This document shows, in pieces, positions 3 through 20,000 of a DNA stretch of 20,000 bases (position 1 is its first letter; each line of letters begins with the position of its first letter). Both the position numbers and the translations under genes were made by a program. Below the pieces are notes generated by a model that was given only the letters and a program-made list of their open reading frames with translations, was not told the DNA's origin and did no database searches. This stretch comes from an uncultured virus (IMG/VR IMGVR_UViG_3300025770_000015). Its lineage: Duplodnaviria > Heunggongvirae > Uroviricota > Caudoviricetes. The stretch lies in IMG/VR virus record IMGVR_UViG_3300025770_000015. One strand, given 5' to 3'.

Positions 3-2066
3 GGTCAAGGCTTCACCTATCAGCCTAATGGTGGTGCTTATACCACCATCTGCAACTCATCTCAGTGTGTGGACGCAAGTCCTGCACAGGTGAAGGCTCT
101 CCTCTCAGCACCCTCTGTGCGAGAGATCAACGCTCAAGGAGAGATCAAGATGCCCTATGAGGCTGAAGCTCTCCCCATCTTGCGTGGTATGCCAGGTGCG
201 AGGTGGGATGGTGATCTGAAGTGTTGGACTGTAAGCCTCGCTCCGAAGGATCGTGAGCGTGTGATGGAAGGGGTTAAGCGTCTTAACCTCAGTTTCCCCA
301 TCGGGTTTGATGGTGTTCAGCACGACAGCACTGTCTTAGACGCTATCACTCGTGCAAAGAGTGGTGGGGCGTACACCTATCAGCTTGATGGTGTGAAGTT
401 CCTTAGTTCTCACGAAAACTGCCTCCTCGCAGATGACATGGGCTTGGGTAAGACACTCCAAGCTCTCATGGCTATCGAAGAGGGTGGTCGAGCAATCGTA
501 ATCTGCCCTGCAACCTTGAAGCTCAATTGGGCGAACGAGGTTCGCAAATGGAGATCTGATCTCTCCCCAGTGGTCTGTAAAGGTCGCAAGGGTTTCAAAC
601 TCCCTCAAGCTAACGAGGTGGTCATCATCAACTATGACATCTTGCCTACCGAGATGACCCCTACATCTCAGTGGGGCGATGACTCTGAGAATGTGCCACA
701 AGCGTGGCGTGATGTACTTGCAAAGACCGTCCTCATCGCTGATGAGGCACACCTCTGTAAGAGCCACAAAGCTATGCGTAGCAAGCGTACAAAGGTTTTG
801 AGCAACCTCTGTCAGCGATCTTGGGCAATGACAGGGACTCCACTCTTGAGCAAGGGTTTTGACCTTTGGGGAGTGGTCAGCACCTTCGGAATGGGTCGCA
901 CAGTGTTTGGTGGATTCAAAGGGTTCATCAGAGACATGAACGGTTATAAGAACTATCATGGGGGGTATGAGTTCGGCACACCTAACCCATGTGTACCTGA
1001 GAAGCTCCGTAGGGTCATGCTTAGACGACTCAAGACAGAGGTACTCACAAGCCTCCCTCCTAAGACTTACCAAGATGTACTTGTCGAGGTAGGCTCAAAG
1101 CGTCTGCTCAAGATGAGTGAGAAGATGCTCAAGGCAATGAAAGAGCATGGCTCAAGCTCACTACCCGACTTTAGCGAGTTTAGTCGAATCCGAGCCGAGC
1201 TTGCAAAGTCTCGTATCTCTGCTCTTGAAGAGATGGTAGAGAGCTTTGAGGAGGCTAACGAGCCTGTGGTCGTGTTCTCAGCACATCGTGCCCCTATCGA
1301 AGCTATGGCGAAGCGTCATGGTTGGGCTGTCATCATGGGTGATACTCATCAGTCTGACCGAGAGGACGCAGTACAAGCCTTCCAAGCAGGTATGCTCAAG
1401 GGTATCGCTTGCACCATCAAGGCAGGTGGTGTCGGGATCACGCTCACCAAAGCAAGCAAGATGATCTTCTGTGATCAAGAGTGGAATCCAGCTCTTAATC
1501 TTCAAGCCGAAGACCGTATCTGTCGTATCGGTCAAACGGCACAAAACCTTCAGTACATCCGACTCGTCAGCGACTGTGCTATGGATCTCCATGTCCTTAA
1601 GCTCATCGACAAGAAGAAGGCTCTCATCAAGGCTTCGATTGAGAAGGAATGTGGAGCTTTGACCTCTACCACTAGGACTAAGGGAGTGGCGATCAAACAA
1701 GAGACTCGCTCAGAGCGTGATGCAAGGGTAACTAAAGCTATCGCACAACAGGCTCAAAATGAGGTTCTAAGCCAAATCCCTGTGTGGACTAGTGTAATCC
1801 CCTCAAAGATCCTCAATCGTTCAGTAGACACTAATATACAAGCTCAAATCATCACTGCAAGTGAGGCTCTCGATGGAGCGTGTGATGGAGCGACTGATAA
1901 AGACGGAATGGGATTTAACAAACCCGATTCTTATGTGATGAAGAACATCAACTCAAGCGGTATGCTTCACGACCTCGACCAACAAGACCTCCTCAAGTAC
2001 ACATGGTCTAAGTTGATCAAATATCGAGGGCAAATCGGTCAAGTAGCACCAAGCCTGTTCATCTGA
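3..2066 (+). CDS. SNF2/SWI2-family helicase with N-terminal HARP-like domain (SMARCAL1-like); 5'-partial
   Basis: Motif I LLADDMGLGKT, Ia ICPATLKLNW, II ADEAH, III MTGTP, LRRLK, V AGGVGITLT and VI QAEDRICRIGQ are present. The N-terminal segment PYEAEALPILRGMPGARWDGDLKCW resembles HARP. The frame is open from position 3 (GQGFTYQPNGGAYTTICNSSQC), so the GTG at 69 is probably not the real start. Confidence 0.92.
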   Translation, partial: GQGFTYQPNGGAYTTICNSSQCVDASPAQVKALLSAPSVREINAQGEIKMPYEAEALPILRGMPGARWDGDLKCWTVSLAPKDRERVMEGVKRLNLSFPIGFDGVQHDSTVLDAITRAKSGGAYTYQLDGVKFLSSHENCLLADDMGLGKTLQALMAIEEGGRAIVICPATLKLNWANEVRKWRSDLSPVVCKGRKGFKLPQANEVVIINYDILPTEMTPTSQWGDDSENVPQAWRDVLAKTVLIADEAHLCKSHKAMRSKRTKVLSNLCQRSWAMTGTPLLSKGFDLWGVVSTFGMGRTVFGGFKGFIRDMNGYKNYHGGYEFGTPNPCVPEKLRRVMLRRLKTEVLTSLPPKTYQDVLVEVGSKRLLKMSEKMLKAMKEHGSSSLPDFSEFSRIRAELAKSRISALEEMVESFEEANEPVVVFSAHRAPIEAMAKRHGWAVIMGDTHQSDREDAVQAFQAGMLKGIACTIKAGGVGITLTKASKMIFCDQEWNPALNLQAEDRICRIGQTAQNLQYIRLVSDCAMDLHVLKLIDKKKALIKASIEKECGALTSTTRTKGVAIKQETRSERDARVTKAIAQQAQNEVLSQIPVWTSVIPSKILNRSVDTNIQAQIITASEALDGACDGATDKDGMGFNKPDSYVMKNINSSGMLHDLDQQDLLKYTWSKLIKYRGQIGQVAPSLFI

Positions 2067-17013: not shown

Positions 17014-17064
17014 GAGTGATCTTAAGTGATCTCTTTAACCACAAACTTGAATGGAGAAACCATT

Positions 17065-17394
17065 ATGAGAAGATCTGCAACCGAAGTTATTAATGACCTT
17101 GAGATGAGAATCGCAAGGCTTGAAAAAGAAGCAAAAGAAGCAAATGATCTTCTTTTTTCGATAAATGAGGATGAGTGGGCAATGCTTGCAGAACTGCACG
17201 AAAATTTATCGAGCCGCGGCCCTTTACAAGATCTAAAGTCAGGTTTGCCAAGTCATGTTCAGAAAGATTTTTCTAAAGTCTTACAACGAGGTAAGAACGA
17301 TTATGTTACAAAGGAACTTTTAAATTACTCAAAGGCGGTACGAGCCGAGCAATCTAAGTTAAAAGATTCACTCGGCAATATTCTGGGTATCTAA
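17065..17394 (+). CDS. Hypothetical protein beginning with the shared leader peptide MRRSATEVINDLEMRIARLE
   Basis: The ATG at 17065 follows GGAG and is preferred over the GTG at 17026, giving 109 aa. Confidence 0.8.
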   Translation: MRRSATEVINDLEMRIARLEKEAKEANDLLFSINEDEWAMLAELHENLSSRGPLQDLKSGLPSHVQKDFSKVLQRGKNDYVTKELLNYSKAVRAEQSKLKDSLGNILGI

Positions 17395-17407
17395 TAAGGT
17401 TTCTTCT

Positions 17408-17917
17408 TTAAGAGAGAGCCTTATATAGCTTCTCCCATTGACGAACCTTTGAGTCCTCTATCGATGAGAGCATATTGAACACCTCCCAATAGCGTAAGGT
17501 GTCATCATAATCCTCTCTCCTAGAGGTTTTCTCGTTTAATAGACCCTCTACCCTACGCACAAGTATTTCTTTGCGTGTAGGGTCTTCATAGGTGTCCTCA
17601 AAGATGTCCTTCTTAGGTTCGTACTTCCACACCTCAAGCCCATACTTACGCTCTAAGGCTGTGCAAGCTCTACCAAAGTCGAGACCCTCTTTCTCCATAA
17701 CCGTTGCGATGGAGTCTCGTACCTTACCACAAGCGAAACAGAACCATGTGTTAGTCTCTGGGTAAACACGGGCAGAAGGTGCATTATCTGAACCATCTCC
17801 ATGTAGATCACAACGGAACTGTTGTTGGTGATCTCGACCATGTACATCATAGTTGTAGGCACTCAAGACAGACAGGATGGGGATCTTTTCTTTAATCCTA
17901 TCTGCTCTCTTGCTCAT
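17408..17917 (-). CDS. Stand-alone CHC2 zinc-finger protein (DnaG primase zinc-binding domain)
   Basis: CDLH...DNAPSARV...WFCFACG...D....VMEKEGLDF..A...L. No TOPRIM domain follows. Confidence 0.85.
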   Translation of the reverse strand: MSKRADRIKEKIPILSVLSAYNYDVHGRDHQQQFRCDLHGDGSDNAPSARVYPETNTWFCFACGKVRDSIATVMEKEGLDFGRACTALERKYGLEVWKYEPKKDIFEDTYEDPTRKEILVRRVEGLLNEKTSRREDYDDTLRYWEVFNMLSSIEDSKVRQWEKLYKALS

Positions 17918-18147
17918 TTCGCACCTTTTCTCATCACTCTTCTTAGTGTGCCGTAGCGTTCGTTACTCATACTTTTTATGATACAGTCACCCAACTTTAA
18001 CTCGGTTGGTGGGGGTTTTTTATCTACATAGATTGTGAGTTTATTTAACTCACAAATGTGAACCTCCACTATTCGTGTGGAGTTCAAAAAAATCATGTAC
18101 CCCAATAACGCAATAAATGTGATTAGTCCTAGTGCGTCATAATTCAT
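17914..18147 (-). CDS. Small protein with an N-terminal transmembrane or signal segment
   Basis: RBS AAGGAG, hydrophobic ALGLITFIALLGYMIFL, and ATGA coupling to the zinc-finger gene. Confidence 0.7.
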   Translation of the reverse strand: MNYDALGLITFIALLGYMIFLNSTRIVEVHICELNKLTIYVDKKPPPTELKLGDCIIKSMSNERYGTLRRVMRKGAK

Positions 18148-18199
18148 CTCATTCTCCTTTTACTTCGTACTTCTTTAATCAGTTATATATTTTAGGTGA

Positions 18200-18443
18200 C
18201 AAAACACCCCGACTCTCCTAAGAGAAGCCGAAGTGTCGGGCAAGTGAGCTGACCTCGCCAAGCATATCTGAGTCTGCGTAAAGCCCAATCGCGAGAAGAA
18301 TCTCACATCCTGGCTCAACCCCCCCTTTTGGGATTGAACCTACGACATGAGGTCAGAATCACTCATATCGACCACTACCCAATCTAGGGAGGTTTACCTT
18401 TACAACAGCATAAAGGCTTTGTCGTGGGTTAGTGGTATCACCC
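18200..18443 (-). ncRNA. Candidate structured non-coding RNA with TATAAT promoter and terminator hairpin
   Basis: TATAAT at 18455-18450. The 5' GGGUGA pairs with the 3' UUGCCC, and there are multiple internal stems with G-U wobbles on the minus strand. A ~15-bp terminal hairpin (18237-18203) ends in UUUUG. Confidence 0.65.
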
Positions 18444-18478
18444 AACTGTATTATACAATAAATAAGGGGTTACAGTTA

Positions 18479-18490
18479 TAGTTTATTTAT
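18479..18490 (+). promoter_or_regulatory. Putative late-promoter motif TAGTTTATTTAT
   Basis: Exact copy, 30 nt upstream of GTG 18521. Confidence 0.65.
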
Positions 18491-18520
18491 CATCACACAA
18501 GGTAAAGTAAAGGGGTCATC

Positions 18521-20000
18521 GTGCAGAATAAAACAAGTAGGATAAGAGTACCTAAACCATTGGTACGAGAGATTGTATCACATATATTCAGCCAAGTAGG
18601 TGTCTATAATGACCTCAGTATAAGTGTCTCAGTACCATCTCCACCGAGAGTTCATAGGTATCTTGCAGACTTAGACTTGAGAGTGGAGATAATACCTCCG
18701 AGTGCGTCTAGGAAGTTAGAATTTGAGGCTAAATACGATCCGACTAACTCTGTCATTTATGTAAATCTACCTTATTTAGAGAGTCGCTACGAAGGTAGAG
18801 AACTTGAACAATCTCTCTACAAAGTAGTCGCTCACGAGCTTGTTCATGTATATCAAATCCTCTATACAAGATCACGAGATAGCGATCCCAATGCAGTAAA
18901 CCCAACAGCAGGACTTCCTGGTCTTAGAGAGAGAACTCCACAATATAGGCAAGAAGAAGGCGACATACTTCACCATCGCCTAGACGATAATGAGTTTTAC
19001 CCACGCTTAGAGGATACGATCAATGCTATTAAATTTGTACTAAAGAGGAATCCTGGAAAATTAGTTGAAATAGTCTCTTATGTCTTAGGTGAGTCAAGTC
19101 GCCCTGTATATAGGTCTAAGCATTTAAAAGAGCCTATAGAATGGCTCATAGCTTTAGATAGATACGCACCTAGAAAGTTCATCAAAGCTGTAAGGAAGAT
19201 TAAGAATGAGTTCCCCGAAACAGCTAAACTTACCCGTCAAGCCGATTTCTTTAGACAGGTTAGCCCACCCGATGAACTGAGTACCTTTAGCAATGGCACA
19301 CCCACGGGTAAAGGTACAGATCTTGAAGATAAGGGTGAGGGGTCACAACTGCCTAATGGAGATGGGGCTAGGGACATAGGTCGTCCTAGCCCCGACTCAC
19401 CGAATCTCAAATCAAGAAATCTTGATCGTTCTGAGTCATATGGCAGGAAACCCGCTGAAAAACAAGACTTTGGTTATGTTCATGATAGTGGTAGCGGTAG
19501 TGCTAGGGTTATCCCTTATGATAGTGGTTTTGCGAACAACTCATCTCCTCTGAGAAAAGCATCCTCCAAAGTTAAACCCATGTTTTTAGGGTCTGACGGG
19601 TCAGCGATGGCTTATGATTTCTACTTTATGCGAGTCGAAAAAGACTACTATTATCACTACACATACAGAGATCGTGCTGATGAGATCATTGAAGATGGAC
19701 ATCTAAGACCTAACTTCTACAAAGACCAGCCTGGTGCTAAAGGTGTGTTCGCTATTTCTGGATCTTATGGGCAAGTGGTTACGAGTCTTCAAGTCAGTGG
19801 TTCTAGGAAAGAACACATGGATAAAATCGTAGCTCTCAAGTTTAAGACTAGAACTGAGCCTAAGTATGGATATCCCGAAGAAGTCATTTGGGATAAGCCT
19901 GTGAAACTTATTCGACCAGAGATTGTGGGCGTTTCAAAAGCAGTATCCGATCTGAACCGAAATGAAGACTTGGGAGAGAACTTCAAGGTGTTTTACGACT
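18521..20000 (+). CDS. 3'-partial multidomain protein: zincin metallopeptidase-like domain plus ADP-ribosyltransferase-like domain
   Basis: Missing from the ORF track because it has no stop inside the window. It starts at a GTG after AAGGGG and is open for 493 codons (MQNKTSRIRVPKPLV...). HELVH is at 18833-18847 with downstream DNEFYP. YYHYT...IIEDGHLRP...GVFAIS...PEEVIW begins at ~19649. Confidence 0.85.
   Translation, partial: MQNKTSRIRVPKPLVREIVSHIFSQVGVYNDLSISVSVPSPPRVHRYLADLDLRVEIIPPSASRKLEFEAKYDPTNSVIYVNLPYLESRYEGRELEQSLYKVVAHELVHVYQILYTRSRDSDPNAVNPTAGLPGLRERTPQYRQEEGDILHHRLDDNEFYPRLEDTINAIKFVLKRNPGKLVEIVSYVLGESSRPVYRSKHLKEPIEWLIALDRYAPRKFIKAVRKIKNEFPETAKLTRQADFFRQVSPPDELSTFSNGTPTGKGTDLEDKGEGSQLPNGDGARDIGRPSPDSPNLKSRNLDRSESYGRKPAEKQDFGYVHDSGSGSARVIPYDSGFANNSSPLRKASSKVKPMFLGSDGSAMAYDFYFMRVEKDYYYHYTYRDRADEIIEDGHLRPNFYKDQPGAKGVFAISGSYGQVVTSLQVSGSRKEHMDKIVALKFKTRTEPKYGYPEEVIWDKPVKLIRPEIVGVSKAVSDLNRNEDLGENFKVFYD

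What the first reader, a model, noticed from the sequence alone, without database searches (positions are those of the whole stretch)
18200..18455. ~245-nt structured RNA with its own promoter and terminator, no recognisable family
Seen on the minus strand: TATAAT, then a closing stem GGGUGA/UUGCCC (18443/18238). Domain 1 is ACCACUA.CCCA/UGGGUAGUGGU enclosing the hairpin GCCUUUAUG..UGUAAAGGU. Domain 2 is AGUGA..CUGACCUC/GAGGUCAG.UCACU enclosing GGUUCAAUCCC-AAAA-GGGGGGGUUGAGCC, GUGAGA/UCUCGC and UUGGG/CUCAG. A ~15-bp hairpin and UUUUG follow. The many G-U pairs would be A-C mismatches on the + strand, which indicates selection on RNA. Inference: a phage ncRNA, or an attenuator leader for the membrane protein and primase zinc-finger genes downstream.
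Basis: partly seen in the sequence, partly recalled or inferred. Interest (0 to 1): 0.75.

Follow-up and report, generated by a model that had tools for sequence, protein, structure and literature searches.

The report
Orphan two-fold RNA of giant phage
A small group of uncultured giant phages carries a conserved, protein-free RNA gene of about 245 bases that matches no known RNA family, seems able to adopt two competing folds, and probably shares a short core with two other unknown RNAs among the phage's tRNA genes; what it does has not been shown.

Summary
The RNA is real. The minus strand folds at z -4.46, and seven variants from one narrow jumbo-phage clade keep 98% of paired cells, with two-sided changes in 5-6 pairs. 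Rfam has no match. The scan noted this same RNA before on another record (e1-5368274).

The attenuator idea is unlikely. The promoter is a phage motif (66 copies in a complete relative), a second copy follows the RNA in 4 of 7 variants, the next gene differs between variants, and there is no U tract.

Best reading: a stand-alone, early-type phage RNA whose module binds a protein, with folding gating access. Expression, partner and host are untested.

The parts
18463..18473 (-). Phage promoter-type motif GTAACCCCTTA in front of the RNA
   Evidence: Kept in the homologs that reach it; 66 matches of GTAACCC[CT][CT] in G001, most just before short non-structural ORFs. Promoter function and early timing are inferred.
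18450..18455 (-). TATAAT hexamer
   Evidence: Present in 6 of 6 variants that reach it; no sigma-70 -35 partner found.
18201..18446 (-). Structured non-coding RNA, about 245 nt; 5' end somewhere between 18452 and 18443 (inferred)
   Evidence: z -4.46; 7 variants; 82.6% identical to L005, against 55.6% for the next gene, 87.7% for the zinc-finger gene and 69.6% for the start of the divergent gene.
18421..18446 (-).
   Evidence: 6 pairs, 97% of cells paired, one one-sided change; favoured in the ensembles of L005, L006, L067.
18371..18436 (-). PK1: the H1 loop (18436-18430) pairs with 18377-18371; likely H-type pseudoknot enclosing H2 and H3
   Evidence: 7 pairs, 98% paired, one one-sided change, one mismatch in L067. 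Coexistence with H1 is inferred from geometry.
18396..18417 (-). H2 hairpin
   Evidence: 8 pairs, 100% paired, U-A to C-G on both sides in 2 of 7.
18343..18370 (-).
   Evidence: 95% paired, 1 two-sided and 5 one-sided pairs; probability 0.54-0.97 in transcripts cut just after it.
18242..18364 (-).
   Evidence: 14 pairs, 100% paired in 7 of 7, 4 one-sided changes, none two-sided; favoured at equilibrium in 6 of 7.
18312..18340 (-). H5 hairpin (looks like a tRNA T arm but is a paired stem)
   Evidence: 11 pairs, 3 adjacent two-sided changes in L065.
18291..18306 (-). H6, variable hairpin
   Evidence: Different in this variant; L069 carries a 26-nt insertion here.
18246..18286 (-). 41-nt core module closed by GGGCU / AGCUC; look-alikes in two tRNA-cluster RNAs of G001
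18234..18284 (-). 51-nt invariant block
   Evidence: 0 of 20,000 column permutations reach this run in 7 rows; 54 nt, p 5e-5, in the 3 rows found without using it. Four rows were found through a 20-mer inside it.
18203..18237 (-). Terminal 15-pair hairpin; 3' stabiliser or weak terminator, no U tract
   Evidence: 99% paired, 1 two-sided and 5 one-sided pairs; not listed by the terminator scan.
18190..18200 (-). Worn second copy of the promoter motif, in front of the downstream genes
   Evidence: Full copy at this place in L005, L006, L067, L068.
17914..18147 (-). 77-aa ORF with a hydrophobic N-terminus (neighbour, not part of the RNA)
   Evidence: No Pfam family.
17408..17917 (-). 169-aa CHC2 zinc-finger protein (neighbour)
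   Evidence: PF01807, E 1.3e-10.
18479..18490 (+). Second motif class (TAGTTTATTTAT) before the divergent 784-aa ORF that starts at 18521

Best explanation
A stand-alone non-coding RNA gene of a jumbo phage, read from a phage early-type promoter and ending in a protective hairpin. Its working part is most likely the 41-nt 3' core module, which I read as a docking site for a protein (a scaffold or decoy RNA), because a similar module recurs in two otherwise different RNAs in the phage's tRNA cluster. In this RNA the module can form only when hairpin H4 is formed (state A). The alternative long helix B takes the module's 3' strand and closes it (state B). H4 forms first during transcription and B is favoured at equilibrium, so the RNA would expose the module for a time, or when a partner holds it. 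Shown: conservation, covariation of local hairpins, full pairing of both H4 and B, promoter layout. Inferred: transcription, the two states in the cell, homology of the module, protein binding.
For: Covariation and 98% pairing on 7 variants. H4: 1 two-sided and 5 one-sided pairs; B: 14 pairs in 7 of 7 with 4 one-sided changes. H4 probability 0.44-0.97 before the 3' block is made, 0.17 or less in 6 of 7 full-length RNAs. A 51-nt invariant block, as expected if one strand serves two folds. A descriptor taken from the window's core finds exactly two more places in G001, both in ORF-free structured stretches between tRNA genes; 123 shuffles gave a mean of 0.073 and never two. Each isolated core is predicted with the same closing helix; across 5 cores that helix is 100% paired with 2 two-sided pairs. 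Own promoter motif, and a second one for the downstream genes in 4 of 7.
Against: No expression data. Only 7 closely related variants, so few independent changes; the shuffle control does not remove relatedness. B and the class I core helix show no two-sided change within the 7. State A lies 1.3-2.2 kcal/mol above B in 3 variants but 7.8-13.4 above in 4 (pseudoknots and non-standard pairs are not scored). The isolated cores fold no better than shuffles (z +1.2 to -1.2). Module homology is mixed: by sequence profile alone class II scores E about 7; left out in turn, class I is found at E 0.0056 (partly circular), class II at 0.65, class III not at all. No protein partner was identified.
Confidence: 0.4

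Rival explanations
1. One compact fold rather than a switch: H1 with PK1, and H4 with a 5-bp pseudoknot from its loop to the 3' block. The RNA is a rigid double-pseudoknot scaffold, like the larger orphan phage RNAs.
For: This model keeps 98.1% of 526 cells paired with 6 two-sided pairs, one more than the nested fold. Both L065 changes in the H4 loop keep pairing with the 3' block.
Against: It does not explain why the other 9 pairs of helix B are complementary in 7 of 7, and it breaks the core helix seen in the paralogues.
Confidence: 0.25
2. The shared module is the core of an undescribed small ribozyme that cuts or processes RNA; the copies between tRNA genes help release tRNAs, and in this RNA the H4/B exchange turns it on or off.
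For: Conserved unpaired letters around a conserved helix with unlike peripheries; classes II and III lie between tRNA genes; tRNA-adjacent ribozymes are known in phages (PMC10879173, passages).
Against: No Rfam ribozyme match. The cores lie more than 200 nt downstream of the preceding tRNA, whereas theta ribozymes cut at the tRNA end. This RNA has no tRNA near it. Weak predicted stability of the core.
Confidence: 0.1
3. A cis-acting leader (attenuator or riboswitch) for the downstream genes.
For: Two exclusive folds, a strong 3' hairpin, and the 77-aa gene lies first to third downstream in all 7 variants. The second promoter copy is worn in the window, L069 and L065.
Against: The terminal hairpin forms in both states and has no U tract; a full promoter motif follows it in 4 of 7; the first gene differs; a relative has the same genes without the RNA.
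Confidence: 0.1
4. A decayed or captured known RNA (tRNA, tmRNA piece, group I intron, SRP RNA, 5S rRNA).
For: Short look-alike words: a T-arm-like run in H5 and a P7-like word in the core (resemblances recalled, not from a call).
Against: ARAGORN and Rfam find nothing. The T-loop letters change in pairs in L065, and the would-be P7 partner changes with the terminal hairpin in L065 and L068. No significant likeness to E. coli 5S or 4.5S RNA or T4 rnaC/rnaD in 16 comparisons (lowest p 0.047). Purifying selection argues against decay.
Confidence: 0.05
5. The RNA is real, but the likeness to the two tRNA-cluster RNAs is chance, and the invariant block has another job, such as pairing with a host RNA.
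For: Mixed leave-one-out results; the three RNAs differ outside the core.
Against: Descriptor test, an identical 8-nt spacing of two motifs in all three, paired changes in the closing helix. No shared or complementary stretch above 14 nt in G001; the host is unknown, so host targets were not tested.
Confidence: 0.1

Closest known systems
GOLLD and ROOL RNAs (bioRxiv 10.1101/2024.12.08.627333, passages read)
   Same: Large structured phage RNAs of unknown function, often near tRNA islands, with pseudoknots and no known protein partner (ROOL). The two look-alike RNAs here lie inside a tRNA cluster.
   Different: The examples in that paper are 659 nt (ROOL) and often over 800 nt (GOLLD); this RNA is about 245 nt, has no Rfam match and lies far from the tRNAs (74 kb against 173-180 kb in G001). 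Nothing shows multimers.
T4 rnaC and rnaD (species 1 and 2 RNAs; PMC9697503, passages read)
   Same: Small stable phage RNAs of unknown function; encoded in the tRNA cluster, like classes II and III.
   Different: 139 and 119 nt, classed as late RNAs, different predicted folds, no significant sequence or model match.
Theta (minimal HDV-like) ribozymes (PMC10879173, passages read)
   Same: Small RNA modules beside phage tRNAs; HDV-like ribozymes also have two pseudoknots.
   Different: No Rfam match; here the two candidate pseudoknots are in tandem rather than nested; no tRNA adjoins this RNA.
Transcriptional attenuators and riboswitches (general knowledge)
   Same: Two exclusive folds set during transcription and a 3' hairpin.
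   Different: The 3' hairpin is present in both folds, has no U tract, and the downstream genes have their own promoter motif in 4 of 7 variants.

Membership tests
Any Rfam 15 family | Covariance-model score at the gathering threshold | tested here: not met
   Whole window at E<=5: 3 hits, none in the RNA. 271 nt at E<=10: 2 hits at 15 and 12.9 bits against thresholds 36 and 70.
tRNA / tRNA-like | Cloverleaf with unpaired T loop and CCA end | tested here: not met
   ARAGORN finds none; the T-loop-like letters sit in helix H5 and change on both sides in L065.
tmRNA | tRNA-like domain plus tag reading frame | tested here: not met
   ARAGORN finds no tmRNA; no Rfam match.
Group I intron | P3-P7 core with G-binding site inside an interrupted gene | tested here: not met
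   No Rfam match; the candidate P7 partner changes with the terminal hairpin in L065 and L068; no interrupted gene. The core definition is recalled.
SRP RNA | S-domain helix with the Ffh-binding loops | tested here: not met
   No Rfam match; no significant likeness to E. coli 4.5S RNA (p 0.09-0.68; no model hit).
GOLLD / ROOL | Family covariance model and length of about 600-800 nt or more | tested here: not met
   No Rfam match for this RNA or for classes II and III; 245 nt.
GOLLD / ROOL | Protein-free multimeric cage | not testable with these tools
   Needs mass photometry or cryo-EM.
T4 rnaC / rnaD | Sequence and fold homology | tested here: not met
   lowest p 0.047 among 16 comparisons.
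OMEGA, CRISPR or retron guide RNAs | Neighbouring TnpB/IscB/Cas or reverse transcriptase gene | tested here: inconclusive
   None among 15 window proteins or 93 of 116 clade-specific ORFs of G001; the other G001 ORFs and the divergent 784-aa ORF were not scanned.
Transcriptional attenuator | Intrinsic terminator with U tract that forms in only one state | tested here: not met
   No U tract; hairpin present in both states.
Self-cleaving ribozyme (new class) | Site-specific cleavage in vitro | not testable with these tools
   Needs a cleavage assay.

The most novel reading that the evidence does not exclude
The 41-44-nt module is the active core of an undescribed class of phage RNA (a new ribozyme or a new protein-capturing motif) that one phage uses three times in different frames, twice among its tRNA genes; in this copy it is switched off by strand exchange between hairpin H4 and helix B, making it a self-timing trans-acting RNA.
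Probability: 0.15. Interest if true: 0.85.

Novelty: new member of a known kind. Interest (0 to 1): 0.55.

Why it matters
Orphan phage RNAs such as GOLLD, ROOL and T4 rnaC/rnaD still have no known function. This one is small enough to make and probe in vitro, has seven natural variants, and offers two sharp tests: whether it switches between two folds, and whether a short module shared with two tRNA-cluster RNAs binds a protein or cuts RNA. A positive result would give a new RNA module and a route into what jumbo phages do with non-coding RNA. The family is narrow (one clade) and its host is unknown, which limits its reach for now.

Tried and rejected
Expression: no RNA holder was listed; four RNA runs of the same studies laid 0 contigs on 17400-19400. 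This is no evidence either way.

Wider family: blastn found nothing in phages or plasmids. Model R1 found full-length copies in 2 of 45 portal-related records and in 1 of 7 that are at least 90% complete. Pattern scans of viral contigs gave no class I variant beyond those known: 18 of 23 loci, 1 of 9, 19 of 27, 1 of 12 and 8 of 13 were unrelated. All 6 hits in cellular genomes lay inside ORFs of 500 codons or more. The core model R3 found nothing new in 49 records; its one weak extra hit lay in coding DNA.

Model R2 was built with a mis-registered structure and not used. The script had an off-by-one error and was redone.

A 15-codon ORF in the 3' block was considered and dropped: its letters are invariant at all codon positions and its changes follow the hairpin. 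A pairing of the H2 5' strand with the core was dropped because it competes with the covarying H2.

Host: not identified.

Literature: five searches (listings only) showed no paper on this RNA. For Fremin et al. (PMC10690425) I read passages and searched 6 supplementary files without a hit; 3 files were not searched, so pieces of this RNA may be among its 8,495 IMG/VR candidates.

Full report
Setting. The window lies in an 83,364-base virus record estimated 27% complete; complete relatives are about 300-375 kb. The portal protein matches an uncultured 485-kb phage at 67% and an annotated portal at 37%. The finding sits in a gap between a divergent 784-aa ORF starting at 18521 and a 77-aa ORF followed by a CHC2 zinc-finger gene. 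Runs of the same studies are labelled marine or seawater metagenome. The host is unknown.

The observation. The minus strand folds at z -4.46 with 0 of 200 shuffles as good; the plus strand at z -1.99. That score alone is not rare in these phages: 24 of 298 tests on ORF-free gaps of three relatives reached -4.5 or lower. Rfam and ARAGORN give nothing. The promoter and terminator scans list neither element.

Homologs. The zinc-finger protein led to 8 loci, 5 with the RNA: three identical to the window, plus L005 and L006. A 20-mer scan of metagenome contigs gave 6 loci, 4 of them new variants. That makes 7 distinct sequences. A covariance model found full-length copies in 2 of 45 portal-related records. 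L008 has the same gene order with no RNA in the gap. Nothing was found in phage or plasmid collections, and the 6 pattern hits in cellular genomes were inside long ORFs. The family is confined to one clade in the collections searched.

Selection on structure. A 51-nt block is invariant; the run is also significant in the three rows found without using it (p 5e-5). With only 7 related sequences these counts rest on few events.

Two helices were missed. H1 pairs the 5' end with 18428-18421, and its loop is the strand that pairs with 18377-18371, which gives a likely H-type pseudoknot. H4 (18370-18343) has 9 pairs, one two-sided and five one-sided changes. H4 uses the same letters as the long helix B, which is fully paired in 7 of 7 with four one-sided changes. 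In folding calculations H4 dominates until the 3' block is made (0.44-0.97) and is then displaced in 6 of 7. Forcing H4 plus the core helix costs 1.3-2.2 kcal/mol in three variants and 7.8-13.4 in four. So both pairings look selected. Whether they alternate, or H4 stays with a short pseudoknot, cannot be told from these data.

Promoter and neighbours. TATAAT lies inside a longer phage motif; GTAACCC[CT][CT] occurs 66 times in G001, mostly just ahead of short non-structural ORFs, so I infer an early-type phage promoter. If so, the start falls a few bases before 18446 and H1 is complete (inference). A full second copy follows the terminal hairpin in 4 of 7 variants, and the first downstream ORF is one of three different genes. 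The terminal hairpin forms in both folds and lacks a U tract. These points favour a stand-alone RNA over an attenuator.

A shared module. The tRNA cluster of G001 holds two further ORF-free folded stretches: class II at L107:15261-15650 (z -5.75) and class III at L107:14270-14572 (z -2.99). Both recur in records G047 and G048, and neither has an Rfam match. I noticed class II by eye; class III was the best, non-significant, hit of the model in 9 kb (E 0.14), and its 5' motif lay outside that hit. All three carry the same two motifs exactly 8 nt apart inside a 5-bp closing helix that is fully paired with two two-sided pairs. Against this: a sequence profile scores class II at E about 7; leave-one-out finds class I at E 0.0056, class II at 0.65 and class III not at all; isolated cores fold no better than shuffles. 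I put homology of the module at about 70%. All three together are seen in one record only, G001.

Mechanism. The module's closing helix needs the strand that helix B takes, so the module can form only with H4. The simplest reading that covers the invariant block, the two folds and the paralogues is a trans-acting RNA whose protein-docking module is exposed in state A and hidden in state B (0.40). Rivals: one rigid double-pseudoknot scaffold (0.25), a new small ribozyme (0.10), a leader (0.10), chance likeness of the module (0.10), a decayed known RNA (0.05). No partner was found: Pfam scans of 93 of 116 clade-specific G001 ORFs showed no Cas, TnpB, reverse transcriptase, Ro60 or SmpB family; RNA-related hits were a poly(A) polymerase/CCA-type head domain and an RNA-repair HAD domain.

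Comparison with what is known. It resembles, in setting only, GOLLD and ROOL (bioRxiv 10.1101/2024.12.08.627333, passages) and T4 rnaC/rnaD, described as RNAs of unknown function (PMC9697503, passages). Direct tests against rnaC, rnaD, 5S and 4.5S RNA were negative. Theta ribozymes cut at tRNA ends (PMC10879173, passages), which does not fit. Five literature searches showed no paper on this RNA, but three supplementary files of the IMG/VR structured-RNA catalogue (PMC10690425) could not be searched.

Verdict. A real, conserved, uncatalogued phage RNA; a new family within a known kind (orphan structured phage RNAs). Expression and function are untested. Interest 0.55.

Noticed in passing
L107:15261-15650 (+) (G001; also L167, L168): ORF-free folded RNA of about 390 nt between a tRNA-like gene and tRNA-Tyr; z -5.75, no Rfam match; the two variants differ by a paired change in one hairpin.
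   Followed up: partly
L107:14270-14572 (+): ORF-free stretch of about 300 nt after tRNA-Arg(TCT), predicted as a long interrupted helix closing a multi-branch loop; no Rfam match.
   Followed up: partly
L107:14172-14275 (+): A roughly 100-nt tRNA-like element with paired ends, a T-arm-like hairpin, a CCA end and an unusually long internal hairpin; missed by ARAGORN and Rfam.
   Followed up: no
L107:15190-15260 (+): tRNA-like gene with an undetermined anticodon, found only with ARAGORN's relaxed setting.
   Followed up: no
L107:13450-14097 (+): A further ORF-free, hairpin-rich stretch between two tRNA-Arg genes.
   Followed up: no
G001 tiles L099-L117; window 18463-18473: A strongly conserved phage promoter-type motif, 66 copies in G001 against 11 in G004 and 4 in G034, densest among short genes in tiles L115-L117.
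   Followed up: partly
G000 (many ORFs, e.g. window 17026-17394): Many unrelated ORFs begin with the same short leader peptide (MRRSASE-like), often behind the second motif class.
   Followed up: no
L181:~620-800 (-): A chance hit of the core pattern in another virus contig looks like a hammerhead ribozyme (motif recalled, not tested).
   Followed up: no
L113:2884-15570 (-): Cluster of several DNA methyltransferase-like genes with thymidylate synthase-like, PLP-dependent and asparagine synthase/QueC-like genes in G001 and G002, suggesting a base-modification pathway.
   Followed up: no
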